Of a stretch of 64,000 nucleotides of DNA, positions 471-53,367 are shown one piece after another. A model generated the notes under the pieces. It did no database searches. It was given only the letters and a program-made list of their open reading frames with translations, and was not told the origin of the DNA. Position 1 is the stretch's first letter. Every line of letters begins with the position of its first letter. The stretch lies in assembly GCF_030013595.1 (NCBI RefSeq), contig NZ_CP122768.1; one strand, 5' to 3'. The position numbers and the translations under genes were made by a program. This DNA is from Escherichia coli (GTDB lineage: Bacteria > Pseudomonadota > Gammaproteobacteria > Enterobacterales > Enterobacteriaceae).

Positions 471-528
471 AAAAACGGCGGCAGAGCAGTCACGGAGTAA
501 AACTGATACCGCCAAACGTCACCAGAAA
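471..528 (-). ncRNA. dicF: DicF small regulatory RNA
   Basis: Reverse complement of 471..528 is UUUCUGGUGACGUUUGGCGGUAUCAGUUUUACUCCGUGACUGCUCUGCCGCCGUUUUU, matching remembered DicF; GC stem plus U-run at 3' end; located between early ORFs and dicB. Confidence 0.75.
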
Positions 529-2386: not shown

Positions 2387-2891
2387 ACAGGCTCGTGAGG
2401 CTCTGGATGCCTGGATATGTCGACCAGGAATGACACAGGAGCAGGCGACGATATTAATCACTGAAGCATTCTGGGCTTTGAAAGAGCGCCCGAACATCGA
2501 TGTTCAGCGTGTCACAGATGAAGGTGGCGCGGTTGATCAGCGAGCGCTTGGCGTTAATCGAGTGAAGATATTCGAACGCTGGAAGGCTATCGACACTAGG
2601 GATAAGCGTGAAAAGTTCACGGCGCTAGTGCCTGCAATTATGGAGGCTATCCGGATTAATGATTTCAGGTTGTATCGTGAAATTAGTGACGGAAAAAGCA
2701 TCACGTACATGATCGCCGGGTTAAACAAAGAATATGGCGATGTGGTGGAGTCCGGACTGCTTTTTGCTGATCCTGCCGTAGTGGATCGTGAAACTGACGA
2801 ACTTATAGAAAAAGCAATTGCTTTCAAACTTGCGTATCGACTGCAATACCAACAAAAAGCTGGATGGAATTATGAGCCTTCTTTTTGCTGA
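2370..2891 (+). CDS. YdaT-like prophage regulatory protein (CII-position protein)
   Basis: 173-aa ORF directly after the cro-like gene, overlapping its stop; resembles the YdaT family from memory. Confidence 0.55.
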   Translation: MKITPEQAREALDAWICRPGMTQEQATILITEAFWALKERPNIDVQRVTDEGGAVDQRALGVNRVKIFERWKAIDTRDKREKFTALVPAIMEAIRINDFRLYREISDGKSITYMIAGLNKEYGDVVESGLLFADPAVVDRETDELIEKAIAFKLAYRLQYQQKAGWNYEPSFC

Positions 2892-3837
2892 ACGCCCACT
2901 GGTTATAAACACACAGCTTGCGATGAAGATTGGCTTAAATGAAGCCATTGTGTTGCAGCAGTTGCATTACTGGTTGAGAGATACCAATTCCGGCATGGAA
3001 TGTGATGGTGTTCGCTGGATTTACAACACAACGGAACAATGGCTGGAACAGTTCCCATTCTGGCCAGAGTCAACGTTAAAGCGCGCGTTTGCAAGTCTGA
3101 AAACGCTGGGGCTTTTGCGTTGTGAAAAGCTCAATAAATCAAAGCGCGATATGACCAATTTCTACACGATCAACTATGGGAGCGAGCTTTTAGATGGTGG
3201 CAAATTGAACGAATCCATCGGTTCAAAATGCGCCGCTCCATCAGGTCAAAATGACACGATGGAAGAGGTCAAAATGAAACGCTCCATTGGTTCAAAACGA
3301 CCCAATGTCATCGGGTCAAAATGGCCTGATGATCTTACAGAGAATACAACAGAGATTACTACAGAGAATAAAAACACTTTTCGTCCGGAAGCTTCGCAAC
3401 CGGACCCGCAGACCGCTGAACAGGATTTTTTAACCCGGAACCCCGACGCGGTTGTGTTTAGTGCGAAAAAACGCCAGTGGGGTAGCAGGGAGGATTTGGC
3501 GTGTGCGCAGTGGATTTGGGGGCGGATCGTGAACCTTTACGAACAGGCTGCCAGCGACGATGGAGAGATCATGCGACCAAAAGAGCCTAACTGGACAGCC
3601 TGGGCCAATGACGTGCGCACAATGCGGATGCTGGATGGCAGAAGCCACAGACAAATTTGCGAAATGTTTGGTCGGGTACAGCGAGATCCATTCTGGGTAA
3701 AAAACATCATGAGCCCGTCAAAACTCCGCGAAAAATGGGACGAACTGGTCATCCGCTTGGGACGTTCACCTGTACAGCGTTGTGTGAATCATATTTCTGA
3801 ACCGGATACAGAAATTCCGCCTGGTTTCAGGGGATAA
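2872..3837 (+). CDS. Replication initiation protein, lambda O-like
   Basis: Position after cro/cII-like genes; contains iteron-like DNA repeats internally (translated as repeated IGSK motifs), as in lambda O/ori; start at MSLLFAERP. Confidence 0.65.
   Translation: MSLLFAERPLVINTQLAMKIGLNEAIVLQQLHYWLRDTNSGMECDGVRWIYNTTEQWLEQFPFWPESTLKRAFASLKTLGLLRCEKLNKSKRDMTNFYTINYGSELLDGGKLNESIGSKCAAPSGQNDTMEEVKMKRSIGSKRPNVIGSKWPDDLTENTTEITTENKNTFRPEASQPDPQTAEQDFLTRNPDAVVFSAKKRQWGSREDLACAQWIWGRIVNLYEQAASDDGEIMRPKEPNWTAWANDVRTMRMLDGRSHRQICEMFGRVQRDPFWVKNIMSPSKLREKWDELVIRLGRSPVQRCVNHISEPDTEIPPGFRG
3219..3324 (+). repeat. Putative replication origin iterons (about five copies of GGTCAAAATG-like repeat)
   Basis: cGGTTCAAAATG 3219..3230, GGTCAAAATG 3244..3253 and 3267..3276, GGTTCAAAACG 3289..3299, GGGTCAAAATGG 3314..3324, inside the O-like gene. 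Confidence 0.6.
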
Positions 3838-3877
3838 GTGTTGATTTCAGGTCATGAGGTAATTTTAAGGAGGACTT

Positions 3878-4273
3878 GTGGCAAAAGTTTTTACACAGGA
3901 AGAGCGGGAAAAAATTAAAGAGCAGGTGGTCGAACTTGTGCGCCAGAGCGGTCGCGAGACATTACGACAGTTGGAAGCTAAAACAGGTGCGACAAGATAT
4001 CTGATGAGCATTCTTGCCAGAGAGCTGGTTGCCAGTGGTTATGTATACAACTCCGGCTACGGGTTATTCCCGTCTGAACAGGCACGAAAGGACTGGCAAA
4101 ATGCCCGCAAAAAACTCTCTAGGGCGAAGGTGAAGAAACCCGCTGTGGTTGATCCGGACCTTATCTGGTCACTACCTGATGGAGAAATACGTCGCTACGA
4201 CAGTCGTCTAAACATAATCTGTCGCGAGTGCCGGAAGAGCGAAGTTATGCAGCGCATATTGTCGTTTTATTAG
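3878..4273 (+). CDS. Hypothetical 131-aa protein at the position where a helicase loader (P/DnaC) would be expected
   Basis: GTG start 4 nt after TAAGGAGG; no Walker motif seen; function unknown. Confidence 0.5.
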   Translation: MAKVFTQEEREKIKEQVVELVRQSGRETLRQLEAKTGATRYLMSILARELVASGYVYNSGYGLFPSEQARKDWQNARKKLSRAKVKKPAVVDPDLIWSLPDGEIRRYDSRLNIICRECRKSEVMQRILSFY

Positions 4274-4615
4274 GGAAATGTTCGGTATCTATTTAAGTGA
4301 CGAGATTAAAGTGCATTAGTTAAGATGTAAATTGACATTTTCATGGCATAGGGTAGAGGTAGCGTGGTTGTCTGCTTTGTGCCATGAACTGATGTCGCTT
4401 GTGTGCGTGGCAATTAGTGTATAACGGATATCATCAGACTCCAGCAGTAGCATTGCTTGAGCATACTAACATATGAAATCTTTAGTTAACGTAAGATAAA
4501 TTAGATTTAGTTTTTTTGAGTATGAGCTCATAAATAATCAAAAAAACTTGATACGCCATATGACTTTGATTTATTTTGGGAAAATATAAAGGTAATGTAA
4601 TGTAAAGAGGAAAAT

Positions 4616-6103
4616 GTGGACATTAGAGACTGGCTACCAGAATTTCAAGTTTCAGCAGAAACAGATCGGGACTTACAGACCTATTTTTTTAAGCTACCGG
4701 CGATAAAGGATATTATTGAAAGTAGGGCTTGGTTGGTTCTTGGAAGAAAAGGTACTGGTAAAACAGCCATTTATGAACACCTTAGAAGAGGAAAACCAGC
4801 CAATCTCAACGGGTTTTACTCAGTATGTCTAAATTTTAGTGACTATCCATGGCCAGCCCATCAACTTTACAAGGATGCAATGGCTGGAGAACTTTCCGCT
4901 TATCAAAAAAGTTGGATGTATCTTTTTTATATTAAGGCATTATCTAAACTTATTGAAATAAAAAATGATGCTGGAGAGACTTTAAACAAAGATCTAACGT
5001 GGGCACATAATTATATCAAAACTATCTTTGGTAGTCCCGACCCAACTCTTAGGGAGGTTTTGTTTTCAAAAATAACCAGATTAAAAACCATAAAAGGGCC
5101 CAGTGCTGGTCTTAATGAAGTATCATTGGACGCAGGTGAAATTTCGTTAGAGGAAGTTGCTGAGAATGCTCAGCTAAAGCAAAAGCTAAGAGCTAATGCT
5201 TTCACATTGCTTACGTATTTTGAAAAAATTTTTAAAGATAACATTGGTAATGAAAAAATAATTATCGCCCTTGACCAATTAGACGAAAACTGGCTAGAGG
5301 GGCAAATTGAAGAATATAGTAAGGTTTTAATAAATCTGCTAAATGTCTGTAGAAACATAGCATCTGATGAACGCCTCAATGATAAATTAAAAGTCATTCC
5401 CTTCCTACGAACGGATATTTATCATTCTTTGAAATTCAATGATAAAAACAAATTATTGCAAGATAGTGCTATCATAATCTCATGGAATGAAAATAATCTA
5501 AACGATATGTATTATGAGAGGATAAAGAAATACAAACCTAATGATCTCATATTAGATGACGAAAAGGACAGATCTGGGAAAGTATTTGAGGTTTCATTCG
5601 TTAGGCAGGGGACTCCTCCATTTAAATATATATGTCGCCGTTCTTTCTTTAGGCCTAGGGATATTATTGTCTACTTCAACAAAATTAGGGCATGTCATAA
5701 AAATAATGTCTCAGGTCTTTACACTTCCAATGAGCTTTATGAAGCTGACCGTGAAGCATCTATAAGTGTGTACAATGAGGTGATTGATGAATGGTCCAAC
5801 CAATTCCCTGAAATTGAGAACTTACTAACTGTTCTTCAAACTATCCAAGTAGAAACATTCGATTTTAATGATTTCTCCGAGAAGTGCCGTAATGAATTTG
5901 CAGGTATTTCTGATGGGGTGATACGTCAATATATCAACTTCCTGTTTGATAACTCACTTATCGGACAAAAAAAACAAGGTAGATGGGAATACGTAAGTAG
6001 TTTGCCTAACTTAAAAATTAATCTACAAAATGAGTTTAGGACACATCATGCTTTAAAATACAGGTTGCATTTAATAGAAAGCAGACCGAGCCAAAATATT
6101 TAG
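4616..6103 (+). CDS. AAA+/STAND-like P-loop NTPase (495 aa), AT-rich moron; candidate defence gene
   Basis: GTG start 6 nt after AAGAGG; Walker A GRKGTGKT (4742..4765); Walker B-like IIIALDQLDE (5258..5287); AT-rich codon usage unlike flanking phage genes. Confidence 0.8.
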   Translation: MDIRDWLPEFQVSAETDRDLQTYFFKLPAIKDIIESRAWLVLGRKGTGKTAIYEHLRRGKPANLNGFYSVCLNFSDYPWPAHQLYKDAMAGELSAYQKSWMYLFYIKALSKLIEIKNDAGETLNKDLTWAHNYIKTIFGSPDPTLREVLFSKITRLKTIKGPSAGLNEVSLDAGEISLEEVAENAQLKQKLRANAFTLLTYFEKIFKDNIGNEKIIIALDQLDENWLEGQIEEYSKVLINLLNVCRNIASDERLNDKLKVIPFLRTDIYHSLKFNDKNKLLQDSAIIISWNENNLNDMYYERIKKYKPNDLILDDEKDRSGKVFEVSFVRQGTPPFKYICRRSFFRPRDIIVYFNKIRACHKNNVSGLYTSNELYEADREASISVYNEVIDEWSNQFPEIENLLTVLQTIQVETFDFNDFSEKCRNEFAGISDGVIRQYINFLFDNSLIGQKKQGRWEYVSSLPNLKINLQNEFRTHHALKYRLHLIESRPSQNI

Positions 6104-6266
6104 CTTACATCCATCTCCATTAAGAAATCTTGCTATTGTTCTTATGGATCGTCTTTCTGACTGATTTCATATTGGCGAGGTAAAGGTAGTTAAGTAGAAT
6201 GGCTGCGGGTGCTTGAGGCTATCTGCCTCGGGCATGAACACCAAAGGCAGATAGAGAAAAGCCCCA

Positions 6267-8141
6267 GTTAACATTACGCGTCCTGCAAGACGCTTAACAT
6301 TAATCTGAGGCCAATTTCATGCTAGACACATGTAGGTTAGCCTCTTACGTGCCGAAAGGCAAGGAGAAGCAGGCTAGTGTTAACACCAAGCTGTAATGTC
6401 CCCTTTGAACCATTCTAAAATGTCCCCAGACAATTCTCTGGGGGATTTTTCATGATCAAAGAGACTGTTACGATGAGTCATAAGGAACTCCACCGACTTC
6501 AGATTATTCAGGAGTCAATTAATCGACATATTACTCAGGAACAAGCTGCGGCACGCATTGGCATTTCTATTCGGCAGGTTAAACGTCTGGTGCAACGGTA
6601 TAGAAATGAAGGGCCTTCTGGTCTGGTTTCCCACCGACGTGGAAAGCGTCCTAATAATTCCTTTTCTACTGAATTCAGAGCAACAGTAATTTCACTCCTC
6701 AAAGGCCGTTACGCTGATTTTGGACCTACGTTTGCGTGCGAAAAATTGCGCGAGATACACGGTTTATCTTTATCCGTTGAAACTCTCAGAAAGTGGATGA
6801 TAGAAGAGGGGTTATGGCGTGAACGCCGTCGTAAAATTGCCCGTATATATCAACGCCGCATGCGACGACCATCTTACGGTGAACTGATCCAGATTGATGG
6901 CTCACCTCATGACTGGTTTGAAAATCGAGGCCCCAGATGTACACTGATCGTTTTCATTGATGATGCCACCAGTGCGTTGATGGCGTTGCGTTTTGTGCCT
7001 GCTGAAACAACCCGGGCTTACATGGAAACCCTCCGGGGTTACCTTAATGATCATGGCGTACCGCTCGCTCTCTACTCTGATAGACACAGTATATTCAGGG
7101 TAAATAACCCAGAGCGGGAAGGTGAGCTGACCCAGTTCACTCGTGCGATAAAGACACTGGGCATCGAGCCAATCCATGCCAACAGCCCGCAGGCAAAAGG
7201 GCGGGTAGAGCGCGCCAATCAGACACTACAGGACAGGCTGGTCAAAGAAATGCGGCTTCAGAATATCAGTGATATTGAAACAGCAAATGCATGGTTGCCG
7301 ACCTTTATTGAAGCCTATAACAACCGGTTCGCTACGTCGCCTCGTACTACTGATAATGCTCATCTTGATGAGCACCATTCTGAAGAGGAACTGGGTTATA
7401 TCTTCAGCCTACAGGCGAAGCGCGTTCTGTCTAAAAATCTCACTTTCCAGTACAAAAGCAGTGCGTTTCAGGTACGCAGTGAGGGCCGGGGATATCGACT
7501 TAGGCATTCGGTTGTTACTGTATGCGAGAACTTTGACGGTGAAATTAACGTTCTGTATGACGGGAAAGCGCTGGGCTGGGAAAAGTATGTTGATGGCCCG
7601 GAGCCTATACCACTGGATGATGAAAAGAGTGTCCATGAACGAGTGGATAATGCCCGTATTGATTTACGCTCAAAATACTATGTTAAACCTAAAGCTGACC
7701 ATCCCTGGCTTACGCGCCGAACGCAAAGTCATCAGCAAGTTAAGCCCCCGAAGTTACCTAAAAAGAAGCCTGATCCCGATAAAAAAGATTGAAACCAAGA
7801 TCGATTCGGTTGAGTGCATATCCATTCATAGGGTAGATTCTTAAGTCGCGTTTCTGGTGTTCATTTTCGGGTGGTTTGTTACTTGTTTTACCGGGGATAT
7901 GCCAGAAACGCGCTGAGTCAGTCTGGGCGGTGCGCGTAATGAGGCGTTATGGTAAATAGCCTATGCTAATGTCCGCTAAGAGCAAGAAGCGGAAGTTGGC
8001 AGTTTTGTGGACTGTCCCCACAAAAGTGACTACAGAAATAGTTGCAATTCATAATTGATCATGGGTTGTCAGTTAAACTCGTGGCGATTTAAATAGACTA
8101 ATTGGGAGTGCGTCCATTACTTATATCTTGTAATGTTAACT
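6267..8141. mobile_element. Insertion sequence (single-ORF DDE/rve transposase; IS481 or ISNCY-like); boundaries approximate
   Basis: 446-aa transposase ORF; 12-bp inverted match AGTTAACATTAC at 6267..6278 and 8130..8141 proposed as termini; no clear target-site duplication. Confidence 0.45.
6452..7792 (+). CDS. Transposase with N-terminal HTH and integrase-core (DDE) domain
   Basis: 446 aa; HTH (AARIGISIRQVKRLV) and rve-like core (..IQIDGSPHDWF.. ..LYSDRHSIF..); basic lysine-rich C-terminus. Confidence 0.85.
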   Translation: MIKETVTMSHKELHRLQIIQESINRHITQEQAAARIGISIRQVKRLVQRYRNEGPSGLVSHRRGKRPNNSFSTEFRATVISLLKGRYADFGPTFACEKLREIHGLSLSVETLRKWMIEEGLWRERRRKIARIYQRRMRRPSYGELIQIDGSPHDWFENRGPRCTLIVFIDDATSALMALRFVPAETTRAYMETLRGYLNDHGVPLALYSDRHSIFRVNNPEREGELTQFTRAIKTLGIEPIHANSPQAKGRVERANQTLQDRLVKEMRLQNISDIETANAWLPTFIEAYNNRFATSPRTTDNAHLDEHHSEEELGYIFSLQAKRVLSKNLTFQYKSSAFQVRSEGRGYRLRHSVVTVCENFDGEINVLYDGKALGWEKYVDGPEPIPLDDEKSVHERVDNARIDLRSKYYVKPKADHPWLTRRTQSHQQVKPPKLPKKKPDPDKKD

Positions 8142-8228
8142 ATCAGAAATGATACAAAGATAATATGTCTTTAAAGAAAAGGCTGATGGCGAAAAGTGGC
8201 CCGATGAGGGCCACAATACGGCTGTCAC

Positions 8229-8561
8229 TTAGACGTAAATATCAATGGTGCCAGCGGTATTTGTATCGTCTTTTTTCTCTTCTTTTTTATCAGGCTGAAC
8301 TGTCGCGTCTTCATTCTTTTTCTCTGCCTGCTGCCTTAACAACTGCTCCAGTTGAGCCCAGAGGCTTTCAATTTGCTTCTGTACCAATGCAGCCATTTCT
8401 TTTTTCTGCTGTGTCGTCATCCCCTCTTCCGATGAGATTTTCCCAAGCTTTTCAGTCAGCACCTGAATTTGTCTTGTGATTTTGGCTATTTCTGATGTTC
8501 CTTCCGGGGCGGAGTTGTTTGAAATAACGGTTGAGGTATTTCCCTGAATTGTGACAGACAT
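8229..8561 (-). CDS. flxA: FlxA (sigma-28-dependent prophage protein)
   Basis: 110-aa product MSVTIQGNTSTVISNNSAPEGTSEIAKITRQIQVLTEKL... matches remembered FlxA. Confidence 0.8.
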   Translation of the reverse strand: MSVTIQGNTSTVISNNSAPEGTSEIAKITRQIQVLTEKLGKISSEEGMTTQQKKEMAALVQKQIESLWAQLEQLLRQQAEKKNEDATVQPDKKEEKKDDTNTAGTIDIYV

Positions 8562-8584
8562 AGATTTCTCCTTTTAAAAAAGCA

Positions 8585-8611
8585 CTATCGGCATGCACAA
8601 AAAAATCTTTA
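8585..8611 (-). promoter_or_regulatory. Sigma-28 (FliA) promoter of flxA
   Basis: Reverse strand TAAAGATT (8604..8611), 11-nt spacer, GCCGATAG (8585..8592), close to consensus TAAAGTTT-N11-GCCGATAA, just upstream of flxA. Confidence 0.6.
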
Positions 8612-8763
8612 ATCGTATTTCTTGTGTCATTAATTGTTTGATGTTCAGATTGTTTTCCTCGCGGGCTGGCGCGCCTCAGAAAGTAAAGCTTGTTGACAGG
8701 GGTAAACGTTCGGCAATAATTTTCTGCCGCATGCGGGTGTTGCATAAAACGTGTTACGTTCCT

Positions 8764-9069
8764 TTATCGACAGGTCAGGTCACCGCTCACCCGCCGACGA
8801 GAAAGCAACACTGACATGCTAAAGCAAAAAATAGATGAATAAGTTGAGTTGTGCATATGTAGCCTGACCGTCACAAAGTATATGGTGTCTGTACCAGTAA
8901 GATGATGGCCGGACTCTTTAAAAACGAGCTGACCTGCACAATACAGGATGGACTTAGCAATGGCTGCTCCTGGCAGAAAGCGGACAGTGATCACCGTTCT
9001 TACGACTACTTTCTGACTTCCTTCGTGACTTGCCCTAAGCATGTTGTAGTGCGATACTTGTAATGACAT
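8764..9069 (-). CDS. YdfV-like hypothetical ORF (101 aa), doubtful
   Basis: ORF of the length remembered for ydfV between flxA and relB; low-complexity product, overlaps relB operator. Confidence 0.25.
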   Translation of the reverse strand: MSLQVSHYNMLRASHEGSQKVVVRTVITVRFLPGAAIAKSILYCAGQLVFKESGHHLTGTDTIYFVTVRLHMHNSTYSSIFCFSMSVLLSRRRVSGDLTCR

Positions 9070-9082
9070 TTGTAATTACAAG
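9057..9082. promoter_or_regulatory. relBE operator/promoter palindrome (relO)
   Basis: CTTGTAATGACATTTGTAATTACAAG, inverted repeat just upstream of relB. Confidence 0.6.
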
Positions 9083-9093
9083 AGGTGTAAGAC

Positions 9094-9333
9094 ATGGGTA
9101 GCATTAACCTGCGTATTGACGATGAACTTAAAGCGCGTTCTTACGCCGCGCTTGAAAAAATGGGTGTAACTCCTTCTGAAGCGCTTCGTCTCATGCTCGA
9201 GTATATCGCTGACAATGAACGCTTGCCGTTCAAACAGACACTCCTGAGTGATGAAGATGCTGAACTTGTGGAGATAGTGAAAGAACGGCTTCGTAATCCT
9301 AAGCCAGTACGTGTGACGCTGGATGAACTCTGA
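9094..9333 (+). CDS. relB: Antitoxin RelB
   Basis: 79 aa MGSINLRIDDELKARSYAALEKMGVTPSEALRLMLEYIADNERLPF... matches RelB. Confidence 0.9.
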   Translation: MGSINLRIDDELKARSYAALEKMGVTPSEALRLMLEYIADNERLPFKQTLLSDEDAELVEIVKERLRNPKPVRVTLDEL

Positions 9334-9620
9334 TGGCGTATTTTCTGGATTTTGACGAGCGGGCACTAAAGGAATGGCGAAAGCTGGGCTCGACGGTACG
9401 TGAACAGTTGAAAAAGAAGCTGGTTGAAGTAATTGAGTCACCCCGGATTGAAGCAAACAAGCTCCGTGGTATGCCTGATTGTTACAAGATTAAGCTCCGG
9501 TCTTCAGGCTATCGCCTTGTATACCAGGTTATAGACGAGAAAGTTGTCGTTTTCGTGATTTCTGTTGGGAAAAGAGAACGCTCGGAAGTATATAGCGAGG
9601 CGGTCAAACGCATTCTCTGA
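9333..9620 (+). CDS. relE: mRNA interferase toxin RelE
   Basis: 95 aa MAYFLDFDERALKEWRKLGSTVREQLKKKL... matches RelE; start overlaps relB stop. Confidence 0.9.
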   Translation: MAYFLDFDERALKEWRKLGSTVREQLKKKLVEVIESPRIEANKLRGMPDCYKIKLRSSGYRLVYQVIDEKVVVFVISVGKRERSEVYSEAVKRIL

Positions 9621-9691
9621 ACCAAAGCATGACATCTCTGTTTCGCACCGAAGGTGACACTTCTGCTTTGCGTTGACAGGAGAAGCAGGCT

Positions 9692-9847
9692 ATGAAGCAG
9701 CAAAAGGCGATGTTAATCGCCCTGATCGTCATCTGTTTAACCGTCATAGTGACGGCACTGGTAACGAGGAAAGACCTCTGCGAGGTACGAATCCGAACCG
9801 GCCAGACGGAGGTCGCTGTCTTCACAGCTTACGAACCTGAGGAGTAA
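9692..9847 (+). CDS. hokD: Hok-family type I toxin HokD (RelF), 51 aa
   Basis: Translation MKQQKAMLIALIVICLTVIVTALVTRKDLCEVRIRTGQTEVAVFTAYEPEE; below ORF-track size cut-off, found by reading. Confidence 0.8.
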   Translation: MKQQKAMLIALIVICLTVIVTALVTRKDLCEVRIRTGQTEVAVFTAYEPEE

Positions 9848-9915
9848 GAGACCCGGCGAGGGAGAAATCCCTCGCCACCTCTGATGTGTCAGGCATCCTC
9901 AACGCACCCGCACTT

Positions 9916-9945
9916 AACCCGCTTCGGCGGGTTTTTGTTTTTATT
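9916..9945 (+). terminator. Rho-independent terminator after relBE-hokD
   Basis: AACCCGC-TTCG-GCGGGTT hairpin followed by a T-run. Confidence 0.6.
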
Positions 9946-10063
9946 TTCAACGCGTTTGAAGTTCTGGACGGTGCCGGAATAGAATCAAAAATACTTAAGT
10001 AGCGCGCAGGGATAAGAGGGATGGTCCCTTAAAGGGGAGAGCTAATTATCCGGAAGGATTCTG

Positions 10064-10315
10064 ATGATGAACATCGAAGAACTGCGTAAAATTTTTTGTG
10101 AAGATGGCCTCTATGCTGTGTGCGTTGAAAATGGAAATCTTGTTAGTCATTACCGCATTATGTGTTTGCGAAAGAATGGGGCTGCGTTAATTAATTTTGT
10201 GGATGGTCGAGTGACAGACAGATTTATCTTGCGCGAAGGTGAGTTTGTCACTTCATTACAGGCACTGAAAGAGATCGGAATAAAAGCAGGCTTTTCAGCT
10301 TTTGCAGAAGAATAA
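10064..10315 (+). CDS. rem: Rem-like small prophage protein (83 aa)
   Basis: 83-aa ORF MMNIEELRKIFCEDGLYAVCVENG... at the position of rem between hokD and ydfU. Confidence 0.55.
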   Translation: MMNIEELRKIFCEDGLYAVCVENGNLVSHYRIMCLRKNGAALINFVDGRVTDRFILREGEFVTSLQALKEIGIKAGFSAFAEE

Positions 10316-10381
10316 ACTCATCTACAATCTTGCGCGGGGCTGAACTCCCGCTGAGTAACACCGTGCCACCGGAGAAAACCG

Positions 10382-10660
10382 ATGGCACGCAACGTAAAAT
10401 ATTACAATTCTGATAATTCGCCCGTTCTTGCCTGCACGCACGAGCGGTATTCTCACGCATTCAAGTCTGAATGGTTCCAACACCCTCCATGCACTGAAGA
10501 GCAGGCTGAATGGATAATTCAGTGTTACCGCAGGCGCGGATACGAGGTTAAGAAAGCCCTTAGTCTCGACTACCGTCACTGGATAATCTCAGTCAGATTG
10601 CCTTACTCCGAACGCCCACCACGTGCGTCCCGCACTTTCCAGCAACGGATCTGGAGGTAA
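10382..10660 (+). CDS. Hypothetical 92-aa protein immediately upstream of ydfU
   Basis: ORF ends 1 nt before the proposed ydfU GTG start; Cys/His-rich N-terminus. Confidence 0.4.
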   Translation: MARNVKYYNSDNSPVLACTHERYSHAFKSEWFQHPPCTEEQAEWIIQCYRRRGYEVKKALSLDYRHWIISVRLPYSERPPRASRTFQQRIWR

Positions 10661-10661
10661 C

Positions 10662-11711
10662 GTGCGGGTATTACTTAGACCTGTTCTGGTGCCTGAGCTT
10701 GGGCTGGTGGTCCTTAAGCCGGGCCGTGAATCCATACAGATATTTCATAATCCTCGAGTGCTGGTGGAACCGGAACCAAAAAGCATGCGTAATCTGCCAT
10801 CCGGAGTCGTTCCTGCCGTTGGCCAGCCGCTGGCGGAAGACAAAACATTGCTGCCGTTTTTTAGTAACGAACGGGTGATTCGTGCTGCTGGCGGCGTTGG
10901 CTCATTGTCTGACTGGCTATTACGTCATGTTACATCCTGCCAGTGGCCTAATGGCGATTACCATCACACTGAAACAGTCATTCACCGTTATGGTACCGGC
11001 GCAATGGTGTTGTGTTGGCACTGCGACAACCAACTGCGTGACCAGACATCGGAATCACTGGAGCTGCTTGCTCAACAAAATCTGACAGCATGGGTGATTG
11101 ACGTCATCCGTCACGCAATAAGCGGTACGCAGGAGCGGGAATTATCTTTGGCTGAATTATCCTGGTGGGCGGTCTGCAATCAGGTGGTGGATGCACTACC
11201 TGAGGCTGTATCGCGTCGTTCGCTGGGATTACCAGCGGAAAAAATCTGCTCGGTGTACCGCGAAAGCGACATCGTACCGGGAGAGCAGACCGCCACCAGC
11301 ATATTGAAACAACGCACAAAAAATCTTGCACCGTTGCCTTACGCCCACCAGCAACAAAAACTACCACAGGAAAAGACGGTGGTAAGCATCACCGTTGATC
11401 CAGAGTCTCCGGAATCTTTCATGAAGCTGCCTAAACGTCGCCGCTGGGTTAAGGAGAAATACACACGTTGGGTTAAGACACAGCCGTGTGCTTGCTGCGG
11501 TATGCCAGCCGACGATCCGCATCATCTGATTGGTCACGGGCAGGGCGGAATGGGAACAAAAGCACATGATCTCTTTGTGTTGCCTTTGTGCAGAAAGCAT
11601 CACAACGAGCTGCATACGGATACAGTGGCATTTGAAGAGAAGTATGGCTCCCAACTGGAGCTGATATTTCGTTTTATCGATCGCGCGCTGGCAATTGGCG
11701 TACTGGCGTAA
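10662..11711 (+). CDS. ydfU: YdfU-like DUF968 protein with C-terminal HNH-like nuclease motif
   Basis: GTG after GGAGG gives 349 aa; motif CACCG..DDPHHLIGHGQGG..LCRKHHNELH at 11487..11615. Confidence 0.65.
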   Translation: MRVLLRPVLVPELGLVVLKPGRESIQIFHNPRVLVEPEPKSMRNLPSGVVPAVGQPLAEDKTLLPFFSNERVIRAAGGVGSLSDWLLRHVTSCQWPNGDYHHTETVIHRYGTGAMVLCWHCDNQLRDQTSESLELLAQQNLTAWVIDVIRHAISGTQERELSLAELSWWAVCNQVVDALPEAVSRRSLGLPAEKICSVYRESDIVPGEQTATSILKQRTKNLAPLPYAHQQQKLPQEKTVVSITVDPESPESFMKLPKRRRWVKEKYTRWVKTQPCACCGMPADDPHHLIGHGQGGMGTKAHDLFVLPLCRKHHNELHTDTVAFEEKYGSQLELIFRFIDRALAIGVLA

Positions 11712-13111: not shown

Positions 13112-13411
13112 AAAAATTCCTTAATACTGATAACTTGGCGCACTATACACACGTTCCTGAAGAAAGCTATAGTTTTTTGATGGGGTTGAAGATGGCTGGA
13201 TGTCTAAAATAAACATTGCTTCATATGTTCAACTATGCGTTAATGATTGCGTCGGTTTGAAGAACAGACGATATACGAAGTAGTTTACTAAAGCAGTTCT
13301 CATTTCAGGTGTTATTCACTTATTCCTTCTTTGAGTCTCTCCAATTAAGTACGAAGTCGTTTCTGTTATGCAAACCATTTATGCCGAAAGGCTCAAGTTA
13401 AGGAATGTAGA

Positions 13412-13627
13412 ATGTCAAATAAAATGACTGGTTTAGTAAAATGGTTTAACGCTGATAAAGGTTTCGGCTTTATTTCTCCTGTTGATGGTAGTAAAGATGT
13501 GTTTGTGCATTTTTCTGCGATTCAGAATGATAATTATCGAACCTTATTTGAAGGTCAAAAGGTTACCTTCTCTATAGAGAGTGGTGCTAAAGGTCCTGCA
13601 GCAGCAAATGTCATCATTACTGATTAA
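13412..13627 (+). CDS. cspB: Cold shock protein CspB
   Basis: 71 aa [38 protein letters not shown]..., RNP motifs. Confidence 0.9.
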
Positions 13628-13917
13628 AATTCATCGCTCGTCTGTATACGATAACGAAGAAGGCTGATGCCTGAGTAGAGATACGGACAGAGTAGTGAAT
13701 ATTGGATTTCTTTAATAAAAATTAAGGAGGTCCAATACATGAAACAATGGTCAGCATATTTGGCAAAATCTTAATCAGGAAAAGTATGCTAACCATTGTG
13801 GTGAAGTGCAGGTTTGCTGCATGAATAGTTTTACAGCAGAAGCTAACTGCTGGCATGGCAAAACAAAGTGCGTAAGTGGATGACTCCCACAAAAAGCACC
13901 ACAATCTCAAACCCGCT

Positions 13918-15935: not shown

Positions 15936-16296
15936 GGTAATATTAAATCGGAACATTTACATCGCGGAATGTAAAATTTAAATAAAAAGGACTCTTCCAT
16001 GAGCCAAAATTCCTGAAATCTTAAGGGTAAGATAAAAGGTCTTAATCAGAATGACACGTTTTATTAATAAATAAAGCTATTCTTTCATTGCTGTGTTTTT
16101 CTTTACAAAAGTAATCCTTGCTATGGGTGGTTAATCATGCGTTAATGGTGTTCTGGTTTGTTACAAATTTATCTGAAGCAGTCATTGTTATAATTTTATT
16201 ATTTGTACCTCTTGAGATTTCCTTGTTGGTTTTTCTCTCTGATATTTTTTTCGGACCATTCTGCCCAAGGGCTAATTTCTTCAAAAGGTAATAATT

Positions 16297-16509
16297 ATGT
16301 CTAACAAAATGACTGGTTTAGTAAAATGGTTTAACCCTGAAAAAGGTTTTGGTTTCATCACGCCGAAAGATGGCAGCAAAGATGTGTTTGTCCATTTCTC
16401 AGCAATTCAGAGCAACGATTTCAAAACATTAACTGAGAATCAGGAAGTTGAATTTGGTATTGAGAACGGACCTAAAGGTCCTGCCGCTGTTCATGTAGTG
16501 GCGCTTTGA
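16297..16509 (+). CDS. cspI: Cold shock protein CspI
   Basis: 70 aa [43 protein letters not shown]... Confidence 0.9.
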
Positions 16510-16780
16510 GGTAGACAATATTACAAACCATATTCACTTTAGATGCCCGTGTTGTCATGGTTCCCAGTATAGAACATCATCTTTTGATGTTTCTGACATG
16601 AATCCTTTCGGGGCAAAATGTATCTTTTGTAAATCAATGATGATTACATTTGATAATATTTCACAATACTTAAATGCCAGCCGTCTGTCGTTGGATTTAA
16701 AAAAGTGAAAATGAAGGCTCCTTCGGGAGCTTTTTGGCTTGGTGTCTATTCGATGGATACTCACATACTACGGTAACATC

Positions 16781-41459: not shown

Positions 41460-42034
41460 TGGCATTCAGAATGAGTGAACAACCACGGACCATAAAAATT
41501 TATAATCTGCTGGCCGGAACTAATGAATTTATTGGTGAAGGTGATGCATATATTCCGCCTCATACAGGTCTGCCAGCAAACAGTACCGATATTGCACCGC
41601 CAGATATTCCGGCTGGCTTCGTGGCTGTTTTCAACAGTGATGAGTCATCGTGGCATCTCGTTGAAGATCATCGGGGTAAAATGGTTTATGACGTGGCTTC
41701 CGGCGACGCGTTATTTATTTCTGAACTCGGTCCGTTACCGGAAAATGTTACCTGGTTATCGCCGGAAGGGGAGTTTCAGAAGTGGAACGGTACAGTCTGG
41801 GTGAAGGATACGGAAGCAGAAAAACTGTTCCGGATCCGGGAGGCGGAAGAAACAAAAAACAGCCTGATGCAGGTAGCCAGTGAGCATATAGCGCCACTTC
41901 AGGATGCTGTAGATCTGGAAATCGCAACGGAGGAAGAAACCTCATTGCTGGAAGCCTGGAAAAAGTATCGGGTGTTGCTGAACCGTGTTGATACATCAAC
42001 TGCACAGGATATTGAATGGCCAGCACTGCCGTAG
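41459..42034 (+). CDS. tfa: Tail fibre assembly protein Tfa
   Basis: 191 aa [42 protein letters not shown]...; start overlaps stf stop. Confidence 0.85.
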
Positions 42035-52927: not shown

Positions 52928-53367
52928 GCTCCGTTTAACATTCATTGAGAAAACTGATGCTACTGTGTCAACGATCCGTTATCAGTGCAGGAAAATGCCT
53001 GTTAGCGTAAAAGCAAAACACAAATCTATCCATGCAAGCATTCACCGCCGGTTTACTGGCGGTTTTTTTTCGCCGTCATAAAAATCAGGCCCCTTGTACA
53101 CAGTTGTAACAAGGGGCCGGTTAGGTGAGGGATTATCTCCGTTCATTAGTCATCCCATTTGTGGCTGAAATACGCGGCCAGAAAACCAGAAAATAAAATT
53201 ATTCCCAGTACGGCCATAAAAACATTCATATTACCCAGCATTATTTGCCTCCGTTTATGGTGTGGTGTGTTTCCTCGCTTACCTTAATTTTCATCTCAAT
53301 GAGAAAGATATTAGCAGAGGTAACCTAAACGAAGGCTGAATTAAATTTTTATTGTGTTCGACTTAAA

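What the first reader, a model, noticed from the sequence alone, without database searches (positions are those of the whole stretch)
9057..9945. Stacked type II (relBE) and type I (hokD) toxin-antitoxin loci with operator and terminator
The relO palindrome, relB, relE and a 51-aa Hok-family toxin are contiguous and end in a strong terminator. hokD is below the ORF-track cut-off and was found by reading. The antisense sok-like RNA and mok frame were not mapped.
Basis: partly seen in the sequence, partly recalled or inferred. Interest (0 to 1): 0.3.

Follow-up and report, generated by a model that had tools for sequence, protein, structure and literature searches.

The report
relBE transposon inserted into hokD locus
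This is the well-known E. coli relB-relE-hokD operon, but hokD has no antisense antidote beside it because relBE sits on a 3.3-kb mobile element that landed exactly on the hok ribosome-binding site and pushed the sok/mok control region 3.3 kb upstream.

Summary
The relO operator, intact relB (79 aa), relE (95 aa) and hokD (51 aa), and a terminator are all present, about 99.8% identical to the K-12 Qin-prophage relBEF operon.

relBE is a complete type II module. hokD is an orphan toxin gene: no sok, mok, tac or ucb lies between relE and hokD.

The missing hok promoter, leader, mok and sok are in the same window at 6172-6377. They abut the left end of an IS1202-family (ISEsa1-like) element spanning 6378-9677. 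It has 21/28 terminal inverted repeats and an intact 446-aa transposase, and carries flxA, ydfV and relBE as cargo. It is flanked by a 16-bp target duplication, AGGAGAAGCAGGCTAT, which holds the hokD Shine-Dalgarno and the AT of its ATG.

Removing the element plus one repeat copy rebuilds an intact hok/sok locus seen in another E. coli (gapless, 99.4%).

The same right end abuts the same position of at least 11 different Hok genes in plasmids and metagenomes (37 of 45 sampled junctions abut a Hok start directly; 6 more keep the RBS). The element therefore appears site- and orientation-specific, repeatedly creating relB-relE-hok operons.

The locus is long known. I did not find the vehicle or its hok targeting in the literature I could search.

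The parts
6172..6200 (+). hok promoter of the orphaned leader (TTGGCG-17-TAGAAT)
   Evidence: Promoter scan, 9/12 match. Same position as in the intact ERP001 locus.
6205..6377 (+). Orphaned hok mRNA leader: tac (6205-6218), ucb/sokT, mok SD and ATG (6304-6321). The mok' frame now runs into the IS and stops at a TAA in the IRL.
   Evidence: Rfam sok RF01794, 111 bits, at 6207-6373. One base differs from the intact ERP001 leader over the aligned leader columns. Motif coordinates and mok' translation.
6250..6362 (-). sok antitoxin RNA gene (about 6327 down to about 6250) and its promoter (-10 as complement of 6334-6339, -35 as complement of 6357-6362), now separated from any hok ORF
   Evidence: Positional homology to the annotated sokC of K-12 and to the R1-type locus in alignment A3. 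The RNA ends are inferred, not measured.
6362..6377 (.). Left copy of the 16-bp target-site duplication (AGGAGAAGCAGGCTAG, 15/16 identical to the right copy)
   Evidence: Most other genomes have T at the last position.
6378..6403 (+). Left terminal inverted repeat (IRL) TGTTAACACCAAGCTGTAATGTCCCC
   Evidence: An ungapped 27-nt alignment to the reverse complement of 9651-9677 gives 19/27 matches; with the ambiguous terminal T/A it is 21/28 by my manual count. BLAST hits to other copies start at 6378.
6452..7792 (+). Transposase, 446 aa, intact ORF. K-12 'ydfW' is its last 49 codons.
   Evidence: NCBIfam transpos_ISNCY_2, 464 bits against a cut-off of 250. RefSeq labels it an IS1202-like ISEsa1 family transposase.
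8229..8561 (-). flxA, a cargo gene
   Evidence: Pfam FlxA E=2e-14. It travels with tnp and relBE next to an R1-like hok in L083 and L080.
8764..9069 (-). ydfV ORF. Its start codon lies inside relO, and the ORF spans the left boundary (about 8958-8967) of the conserved relBE module, so it is probably not a real gene.
   Evidence: Module boundary.
9030..9081 (+). relBE promoter (-35 TTGCCC 9030-9035, -10 GATACT 9053-9058, inferred) and relO operator (9058-9081)
   Evidence: Operator half-sites as in PMC2812701. The hexamers match only 8/12, below the scan threshold.
9094..9333 (+). relB antitoxin/repressor, 79 aa
9333..9620 (+). relE toxin, 95 aa (L34I relative to K-12). K52, K54, R61, R81 and Y87 are present.
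   Evidence: The residues were read from the translation.
9650..9677 (+). Right terminal inverted repeat (IRR) ...GGTGACACTTCTGCTTTGCGTTGAC. relE stops 57 nt before the element end.
   Evidence: Unique in the window.
9678..9693 (.). Right copy of the target-site duplication AGGAGAAGCAGGCTAT. It contains the hokD SD (AGGAG, 9678-9682) and the AT of its start codon.
9692..9847 (+). hokD (relF), 51-aa Hok-family membrane toxin. A TACG motif lies at Tyr47 (9830-9833).
   Evidence: Editing of hokD mRNA is reported in PMC12214031.
9897..9911 (+). fbi (fold-back inhibition) element CCTCAACGCACCCGC. Its tac partner is now at 6205-6218, on a different transcript.
   Evidence: It is the reverse complement of tac with one mismatch.
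9916..9945 (+). Terminal hairpin of the hok mRNA, acting as the intrinsic terminator that now ends the relBEF operon

Best explanation
The region is the relB-relE-hokD (relBEF) operon of a Qin-type lambdoid prophage.

**How the operon works**
- relBE works as in K-12 (established knowledge). RelB dimers, with RelE as co-repressor, bind the four hexads of relO over the promoter. [quoted passage not shown]
- hokD is not a free-standing type I module. It is the toxin half of a phage-borne hok/sok locus.

**How hokD lost its leader**
- That locus was split by a 3.3-kb IS1202-family (ISEsa1-like) transporter IS at 6378-9677. The element consists of IRL, transposase, flxA, ydfV, relBE and IRR.
- It inserted in the hok translation-initiation region and duplicated 16 bp, AGGAGAAGCAGGCTAT.
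- The hok promoter, tac/ucb, mok and the sok gene stayed on the left side (6172-6377). From there they now read into the IS.
- The right copy of the duplication gives hokD its own SD and start codon directly after the IRR.
- relBE has no terminator of its own. Transcription from the relBE promoter therefore runs out through the IRR into hokD and stops at the old hok terminator.
- Inferred consequence: hokD is no longer controlled by Sok, Mok or tac-fbi refolding. It is controlled by RelB/RelE autorepression and by whatever structure forms around its SD.

**Target choice**
- The element is site- and orientation-specific for this conserved hok sequence. It has produced relB-relE-hok operons repeatedly in different hok genes on plasmids and prophages.

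**K-12**
- K-12 carries the same insertion. A later 4958-bp deletion (window 2650-7607) removed the IRL, most of the transposase and the orphaned sok leader.
For: **Shown by sequence**
1. No sok/mok leader is present at 8000-11000, with positive controls.
2. A full leader scoring 111 bits lies at 6207-6373. It ends ...AGGAGAAGCAGGCTAG and is followed by TGTTAAC....
3. The terminal inverted repeats match 19/27 ungapped (21/28 by manual count with the terminal T/A). They are anchored at the right terminus and 3 nt inside the left query start. Only 5 of 1000 shuffles scored as well.
4. The 16-bp direct repeat flanks the element in the window. Identical or 17-bp repeats flank complete copies in L020, L045, L049, L052, L053, L060, L067, L068, L072 and L082.
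5. Empty site: window 5900-6377 joined to 9694-10300 aligns as a single gapless 857-nt HSP, 99.4% identical, with the intact hok/sok locus of E. coli ERP001.
6. The transposase matches NCBIfam ISNCY_2 at 464 bits. The IS1202 family is reported to have TGT ends and a subgroup with 15-17 bp duplications.
7. An unbiased scan for the IRR alone in metagenomes gave 45 loci.
   - 37 have a Hok start directly after the IRR, with 11 distinct Hok peptides of at least 40 aa, behind six different SD-to-ATG sequences.
   - In 6 more, another IS-like sequence follows the AGGAG.
   - Two are tandem arrays.
   - RelE always ends 60 nt before the IRR end.
8. IncHI2 and IncHI1B plasmids carry RelB and RelE with the same protein accessions as K-12. 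These are fused at the same nucleotide to two other hok genes.
9. The IRL abuts the start codon of five different hok leaders: window, L013, L014, L021 and L027.
10. Tandem IRR-16 bp-IRL arrays occur in L069 and L076.
11. The same flxA-containing 3.3-kb version lies next to an R1-like hok in L083 and L080.
12. A 2.57-kb copy sits at a non-hok site with a 14/16 duplication in L033.

**From the literature**
- relBEF is one transcript.
- HokD is toxic when expressed.
Against: - No transposition was observed. The element is essentially single-copy in E. coli genomes (median 1, maximum 3 places).
- ISfinder's ISEsa1 is listed as 1609 bp with no duplication. Transposase-only plasmid copies end near window 7998 with a different, shorter right end. 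The 3.3-kb unit may therefore be a derivative whose internal structure arose by later insertion. In the window, the internal short-type end at about 7998 lacks its last 6 or so bases.
- One copy (L087) sits at a non-hok site with only a 7-bp repeat. L121 has non-matching flanks.
- Target specificity could be exaggerated by selection: insertions elsewhere in hok/sok may be lethal.
- Whether HokD is actually translated from the relBEF mRNA, and whether Sok is still made from 6.3 kb, was not tested.
Confidence: 0.85

Rival explanations
1. Two complete toxin-antitoxin loci lie side by side, with a diverged sok gene, sok promoter and mok frame hidden in the 71 nt between relE and hokD or in the 3' end of relE.
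For: There is an in-frame ATG at 9629, and weak resemblance of 9615-9633 to a mok SD/ATG region (my reading).
Against: The Rfam sok model finds nothing at E<=10 although it detects every control locus. No antisense promoter is found. The 9629 frame stops at a TGA at 9674-9676. Bases 9621-9677 are part of the mobile element: they are shared with relBE copies next to other hok genes, and with an Acinetobacter relBE that has no hok.
Confidence: 0.03
2. Generic rearrangement. relBE, as a bare promoter-plus-ORFs module, integrated into or recombined with the mok/hok region by illegitimate recombination. The nearby IS is an unrelated neighbour.
For: The literature describes hokD as inactivated by 'genomic rearrangement' and says relBE 'integrated' into hokD. 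The K-12 sequence alone shows no IS left end.
Against: The model does not explain the 16-17 bp direct repeats at both ends or the inverted repeats at exactly those ends. It does not explain the gapless empty-site match, the tandem IRR-16 bp-IRL arrays, or the identical junction nucleotide in 11 Hok variants.
Confidence: 0.07
3. One ancient relBE-hok fusion spread among hok loci by homologous recombination, rather than by repeated site-specific transposition.
For: Hok leaders and the SD region share conserved stretches. Some loci have mismatched flanks (L121).
Against: The hok coding regions to the right of the junction are only 31-43% identical in protein to HokD and differ from the first codons on. 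This leaves only about 16 bp of homology on that side. Complete copies in different hok loci each carry their own matching duplication (L053 compared with the window). The junction register varies between AT| and ATG|.
Confidence: 0.08

Closest known systems
relBEF (relB-relE-hokD/relF) operon of the E. coli K-12 Qin cryptic prophage
   Same: The relO, relB, relE, hokD and terminator sequence is the same, with 2 differences in about 1 kb. The downstream neighbours rem, ydfU and ydfT are also the same.
   Different: This window still has the left 1.2 kb of the transposon, the orphaned hok/sok leader and 3.7 kb of prophage DNA that K-12 has deleted (window 2650-7607). RelE carries L34I.
[quoted passage not shown]
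   Same: The Hok ORF, SD, 3' fbi element and terminal hairpin are retained with hokD. The promoter, tac, mok and sok are retained 3.3 kb upstream.
   Different: The two halves are on different transcripts, so Sok/Mok/tac-fbi control cannot act on hokD. In K-12, hokA, hokC and hokE are reported to have IS elements nearby. Here the IS sits on the hok RBS itself.
IS1202 family insertion sequences (ISEsa1; the ISTde1 subgroup with 15-17 bp duplications; transporter IS such as ISKpn21)
   Same: It shares an ISNCY/IS1202-type DDE transposase, a TGT terminus, imperfect inverted repeats of about 25 bp, a long duplication and the possibility of passenger genes.
   Different: ISEsa1 is catalogued as 1609 bp with no duplication and no target preference. 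The only specific target described for the family is XerC/D (dif-like) sites, used by the 5-bp subgroup. Here the duplication is 16-17 bp, the cargo is a toxin-antitoxin operon, and the target is the hok ribosome-binding site.
Tn7-like and other site-specific transposons that use a conserved 'safe' site
   Same: Insertion is orientation-specific, at one conserved sequence found on many replicons.
   Different: No TnsD-like or guide-RNA targeting component is evident. The target lies inside a toxin gene's translation-initiation region on mobile DNA, not next to an essential chromosomal gene.

Membership tests
RelBE type II toxin-antitoxin | Antitoxin gene first, overlapping the toxin gene, with both ORFs intact and matching the family profiles | tested here: met
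   relB is 9094-9333 and relE is 9333-9620, with a 1-base overlap. Pfam RelB E=1e-32 and ParE_toxin E=2e-13.
RelBE type II toxin-antitoxin | Autoregulatory operator with four [A/T]TGT[A/C]A hexads in two abutting 12-bp half-sites over the promoter | tested here: met
   TTGTAATGACAT and TTGTAATTACAA lie at 9058-9081, identical to the mapped relO (PMC2812701).
RelBE type II toxin-antitoxin | Ribosome-dependent mRNA cleavage by RelE and its neutralisation by RelB | not testable with these tools
   K52, K54, R61, R81 and Y87 are present in the translation. Their role as catalytic residues is from my own knowledge. The only change from K-12 is the conservative L34I.
[quoted passage not shown] | Hok/Gef-family toxin ORF with its own SD | tested here: met
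   HOK_GEF E=1e-23. AGGAG lies 9 nt before the ATG.
[quoted passage not shown] | Antisense Sok RNA gene and promoter overlapping the leader of the same hok mRNA | tested here: not met
   There is no RF01794 hit at E<=10 in 8000-11000 and no minus-strand promoter. A sok copy exists at about 6250-6362, but on a leader no longer joined to hokD.
[quoted passage not shown] | A mok reading frame that overlaps hok and is translationally coupled to it | tested here: not met
   The frame upstream of hokD is closed by a TGA at 9674-9676. The true mok ATG is at 6319, and that frame now ends in the IRL.
[quoted passage not shown] | A 5' tac element paired with a 3' fbi element within one mRNA | tested here: not met
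   fbi is at 9897-9911, but the only tac in the 64 kb is at 6205-6218, upstream of the IS.
IS1202 family (long-duplication type) transporter IS | IS1202/ISNCY-type DDE transposase | tested here: met
   NCBIfam NF033594 scores 464 bits against a cut-off of 250. The protein is 94% identical to plasmid copies annotated as ISNCY.
IS1202 family (long-duplication type) transporter IS | Imperfect terminal inverted repeats beginning 5'-TGT | tested here: met
   The IRL is TGTTAAC.... The right end reads ...GTTGAC(A). The ungapped match is 19/27, or 21/28 with the ambiguous terminal T/A. The terminal A could belong to either the IS or the duplication.
IS1202 family (long-duplication type) transporter IS | Target-site duplication of 15-17 bp | tested here: met
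   Duplications of 16 bp (17 bp in L045 and L053) flank 12 complete copies, and tandem arrays have a 16-bp spacer.
IS1202 family (long-duplication type) transporter IS | Ability to transpose | not testable with these tools
   Inferred only, from the same unit lying at different hok genes and at a non-hok site.

The most novel reading that the evidence does not exclude
An ISEsa1-like IS1202-family transposon recognises the conserved hok Shine-Dalgarno-to-start sequence (AGGAGAAG-N-AGGCYAT) in one orientation and carries relBE next to its right end. Each insertion disconnects a hok toxin from its Sok/Mok control and rewires it as the third gene of a relBE operon. On this reading, the classical K-12 relBEF operon, and the long-noted 'rearrangement' of hokD, are products of this element. 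relBE of K-12 would be transposon cargo rather than a prophage or chromosomal gene.
Probability: 0.75. Interest if true: 0.6.

Novelty: new variant of a known kind. Interest (0 to 1): 0.5.

Why it matters
relBE of E. coli K-12 is one of the most studied toxin-antitoxin systems, and hokD/relF is routinely listed as a fifth 'hok/sok system' of K-12.

- **Annotation.** Showing that hokD has no cis antitoxin, and why, corrects how the locus should be annotated. It also affects how relBE deletions with polar effects on hokD should be interpreted.
- **Origin of the operon.** The evidence gives a concrete and testable origin: a transposon that carries one addiction module and inserts precisely into another. 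This disables the RNA-based control and captures the toxin.
- **IS biology.** A 16-bp, orientation-specific target found on many plasmids and prophages would be a second kind of site-specific targeting in the IS1202 family. It would also be a possible tool for directed insertion.
- **Hok/Sok evolution.** It adds a fourth case in which IS elements inactivate chromosomal hok loci.

Tried and rejected
1. **Search for sok/mok between relE and hokD.** Rfam and the promoter scan were both negative. The weak isrK, rsmX and CRISPR-DR hits on the 3' UTR are far below gathering scores and reflect the terminator hairpins only.
2. **The ATG at 9629 as a mok remnant.** I first read this ATG and its 15-codon frame as a mok remnant, and 9634-9677 as a diverged mok region. 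I rejected this because that stretch is the transposon's right end. It is found next to many other hok genes and partly in an Acinetobacter relBE without hok.
3. **O157:H7 TR01 as the ancestral form.** This arrangement (full leader, 44 nt of 9634-9677, then hokD) looked like a possible ancestor. I rejected it because it is a singleton among 20,395 records. It is best explained as a deletion derivative that kept the last 44 nt of the element.
4. **Alternative right ends.** I considered about 7998 (where transposase-only plasmid copies end) and 8117-8145. The first is truncated in the window. Neither is followed by the duplication. The whole 3.3-kb unit is found at another hok gene.
5. **The BLAST break at 9678.** It initially suggested the fusion point was 14 nt before the ATG. 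It is in fact the element/duplication boundary.
6. **Unavailable papers.** Pedersen & Gerdes 1999 and Ramisetty & Santhosh 2016 could not be read because they are not held. I know their content only through papers that cite them.
Full report
**1. The observation**

- relB is at 9094-9333 (79 aa), relE at 9333-9620 (95 aa, one-base overlap with relB) and hokD at 9692-9847 (51 aa).
- Pfam assigns them to RelB (1e-32), ParE_toxin/RelE (2e-13) and HOK_GEF (1e-23).
- The operator is a 12-nt direct repeat plus the perfect palindrome TTGTAATTACAA (9070-9081), preceded by TTGTAATGACAT (9058-9069). These are exactly the two relO half-sites mapped by mutagenesis and footprinting (PMC2812701).
- A 7-bp G+C-rich hairpin at 9916-9933 with a T run is the only terminator-like site in 8800-10100. 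The 3' UTR is strongly structured, with z = -4.2.
- Over 8873-9870 the window differs from K-12 MG1655 at two bases, one of which gives RelE L34I.
- RefSeq annotates relB, relE, hokD and rem over the same DNA in 1161 of 5426 complete E. coli genomes. In K-12 the locus lies in the Qin cryptic prophage.

**2. Is hokD a type I toxin-antitoxin locus here?**

A hok/sok locus is defined by more than the toxin ORF. It also has a leader of about 150 nt carrying tac, ucb, the mok start and the Sok target. It has an antisense sok gene with its promoter inside the mok region, and a 3' fbi element that pairs with tac (summarised in PMC9841398).
- Rfam's sok model (RF01794) covers that leader. As positive controls it scores 118, 110 and 84 bits on K-12 hokC, hokB and hokE. 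It scores 104-120 bits on hokD-type loci of other E. coli.
- In window 8000-11000 it gives no hit even at E<=10.
- No promoter-like site lies on the minus strand.
- The frame upstream of hokD is closed by a TGA at 9674-9676.
- hokD does keep its SD (AGGAG, 9678-9682), its ORF, an fbi element (CCTCAACGCACCCGC, 9897-9911) and the terminal hairpin. The fbi element is the reverse complement of the tac of intact loci apart from one base.

hokD is therefore an orphan toxin gene. It is the third cistron of relBEF, which is a single transcript in K-12 (PMC3598666). This agrees with reports that K-12 hokD lost canonical components by 'genomic rearrangement'.

**3. Where the missing half is**

A gathering-threshold Rfam scan of the whole window found a full sok/hok leader at 6207-6373, scoring 111 bits.
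- It comes with a hok promoter (6172-6200), tac (6205-6218), the mok SD and ATG (6304-6321) and the antisense sok promoter (complement of 6334-6362).
- It matches the leader of an intact hokD-type locus in E. coli ERP001 except for one base.
- It runs to ...AGGAGAAGCAGGCTAG at 6377. It then switches abruptly to TGTTAACACCAAGCTGTAATGTCCCC.
- Next comes a 446-aa ORF (6452-7792) that matches NCBI's ISNCY transposase model at 464 bits. RefSeq calls it an IS1202-like ISEsa1 family transposase.
- The K-12 gene 'ydfW' is the last 49 codons of this ORF.

**4. A bounded mobile element**

- The reverse complement of the sequence just before hokD (...GGTGACACTTCTGCTTTGCGTTGAC, ending at 9677) aligns without gaps to the IS left end. 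The match is 19/27, or 21/28 if the ambiguous terminal T/A is counted. It is anchored at the right terminus, and 5 of 1000 shuffles score as well.
- Immediately outside the two ends lies the same 16-mer: AGGAGAAGCAGGCTAG at 6362-6377 and AGGAGAAGCAGGCTAT at 9678-9693.
- Joining window 5900-6377 to 9694-10300 removes the element and one repeat copy. The result aligns with the intact ERP001 hok/sok locus as a single gapless 857-nt match at 99.4% identity. That is a precise empty site.
- The IS1202 family is described as having TGT termini, imperfect inverted repeats of about 25 bp, and a subgroup that makes 15-17 bp duplications. Some members carry passenger genes (PMC10132070; bioRxiv 2022.12.17.520857).

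The element at 6378-9677 fits that description. Its cargo is flxA, the doubtful ORF ydfV, and relBE.

**5. Is relBE really cargo, and is the hok site a target?**

*Plasmids.* IncHI2 and IncHI1B plasmids of Klebsiella and Enterobacter carry relBE 98.5% identical to window 8966-9696. The RelB and RelE protein accessions are the same as in K-12. These copies are fused at the same nucleotide (GTTGAC|AGGAGAA...) to two other hok genes.

*Species genomes.* A scan of one genome per species with the transposase gave the following.
- The IRL abuts the start codon of further, different hok leaders: Kluyvera, Pseudocitrobacter and two plasmid leaders.
- A 2.57-kb copy (IRL, transposase remnants, relBE, IRR) sits at a non-hok site with a 14/16 duplication (L033).
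- An Acinetobacter plasmid has 94 nt of IRL 61 nt upstream of the relBE module.

*Metagenomes.* An unbiased metagenome scan for the 25-nt IRR alone returned 45 loci.
- In 37 loci a Hok start follows directly after the IRR. Together they give 11 distinct Hok peptides of at least 40 aa: HokD, several R1-like types, MKLPPSN..., MKLPRNALV..., MKLPNQP... and MKLPWNAL.... These sit behind six different SD-to-ATG sequences.
- In 6 more loci another IS-like sequence follows the AGGAG; three of these have a hok 1.1-2.4 kb further on.
- Two loci are tandem arrays with exactly 16 bp between an IRR and the next IRL.
- Two loci are unrelated sites.
- Wherever upstream sequence is available and relBE is present, relE ends 60 nt before the IRR end.
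- Complete copies with both junctions carry matching 16-17 bp repeats. One is a 4.6-kb copy in an R1-like hok locus (L053).
- The same flxA-containing 3.3-kb version as in the window lies next to an R1-like hok (L083, L080).

*Viral contigs.* IRL flanks there are almost all the hokD-type leader.

I conclude that the unit moves as a whole, and that it strongly prefers this conserved hok sequence in one orientation. Homologous recombination alone cannot account for this. To the right of the junction the different hok genes share little more than the 16-mer.

**6. Mechanism (shown and inferred)**

*Shown.* The anatomy, the duplication, the empty site and the recurrence of the junction.

*Established for K-12.*
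- RelB/RelE autoregulation at relO by conditional cooperativity.
- Co-transcription of relB, relE and hokD.
- Toxicity of HokD on expression.

*Inferred.*
- (a) Insertion separates the hok ORF from its promoter, Mok-coupled translation, Sok and the tac partner of fbi.
- (b) The right copy of the duplication supplies the SD and start codon, so hokD can be translated from read-through relBE transcripts.
- (c) The old hok hairpin now terminates the operon.
- (d) The leftover leader and sok at 6.2-6.4 kb are probably still transcribed but have no toxin to control. The mok' frame ends at a TAA in the IRL. A hairpin with a T run sits just before the transposase start (6423-6444).

*Speculative.*
- Folding 9621-9940 predicts pairing of the IRR end plus SD (9669-9681) with the first half of fbi (about 9895-9905). 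That could mask the SD in the full-length mRNA.
- A 15-codon ORF (9629-9676) bridges the relE stop and the hokD SD.

**7. K-12 and population picture**

- K-12 equals this window with 2650-7607 deleted. It keeps only the right 2.07 kb of the element and has no sok copy for hokD. This explains why the IS could not be recognised from K-12 alone.
- About 1160 of 5426 complete E. coli genomes have the relE-hokD junction. Of these, 785 retain the IS left part.
- 5424 of 5426 genomes match the hokD region, and about 4270 of them lack the relE-hokD junction. The four such loci I examined are hok/sok loci with full leaders at the same prophage position. Variable cargo lies upstream: paa, a RelA/SpoT-domain gene, queH, and here a Sll1717-type ATPase.

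**8. Comparison with what is known, and novelty**

- The operon itself is textbook.
- That relBE 'integrated' into hokD has been stated (Ramisetty & Santhosh 2016, as cited in PMC6379469).
- I did not find the vehicle, its 16-17 bp duplication or its hok targeting in the literature I could search. The two IS1202-family surveys never mention hok, toxin or relE, and report specific targeting only for the 5-bp subgroup at Xer sites. One of them (PMC10132070) lists ISEsa1 as having no duplication.
- I could not read the two primary papers or query ISfinder, so prior description cannot be excluded.
- I therefore rate the flagged locus as known. What it turns out to be is a new variant of a known kind: an IS1202-family transporter IS with toxin-antitoxin cargo and a new specific target.

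Noticed in passing
window 9432 (relE codon 34): RelE has Ile34 where K-12 has Leu. Nearly all metagenomic copies are 99% identical to the window protein, that is, one residue apart, so this looks like a rare conservative variant.
   Followed up: partly
window 8764-9069 (-): The ydfV ORF starts inside relO and crosses the left boundary (about 8958-8967) of the conserved relBE module. It has no Pfam or NCBIfam match. It is probably a chimeric, non-genic ORF.
   Followed up: partly
L012 (E. coli O157:H7 TR01) 2385-2560: This locus has a full hok leader up to the mok SD, then only the last 44 nt of the transposon right end, then the duplication and hokD. It is unique among 20,395 records. It looks like a deletion derivative that removed mok, the sok promoter and the whole element body.
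   Followed up: yes
L042, L051, L054, L073, L085, L086 (metagenome loci), right flank of the IRR: After AGGAG(A/T) a different sequence follows, TGTATGGGTCCACCACATATTGC.... In three of the six loci a hok ORF lies 1.1-2.4 kb further on. This appears to be a second, different IS inserted at almost the same hok RBS position.
   Followed up: no
L063, L074, L083 right flanks: Some relBE-hok junctions have altered SD sequences (AGGGAG, AGAGA). These might weaken Hok translation.
   Followed up: no
L087 and L121 (viral contigs): L087 has the 3.3-kb element at a non-hok site with only a 7-bp repeat (ACGCCTT). L121 has a left flank from a different hok leader than its right flank. Both are exceptions to the simple model.
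   Followed up: no
window 9828-9834: hokD Tyr47 is encoded by TAC within CTTACGAA. That matches the TACG context reported for A-to-I editing of hok mRNAs (hokD about 6% edited in K-12, PMC12214031).
   Followed up: partly
window 9669-9681 with about 9895-9905: Predicted long-range pairing of the transposon end plus the hokD SD (GCGUUGAcaGGA) with the fbi element (UCCUCAACGC), seen in both the MFE and centroid folds of 9621-9940.
   Followed up: partly
window 4616-6103 (+): A 495-aa Sll1717-family P-loop ATPase lies just upstream of the orphaned hok leader. Other prophages carry paa, a RelA/SpoT-domain gene or queH at this position, so it looks like a variable cargo slot.
   Followed up: partly
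window 476-527 (-), 13251-13643 (+), 16152-16536 (+), 41802-42000 (+), 52939-53152 (+): Other Rfam gathering-level hits: DicF sRNA, two cspA-type thermoregulator leaders, IS009 and STnc560.
   Followed up: no
L028 (Leclercia adecarboxylata chromosome) 5286-7094: A relBE-IRR module (with relE frameshifted) abuts codon 114 of another copy of the same transposase, so this is a nested insertion or a recombinant.
   Followed up: no
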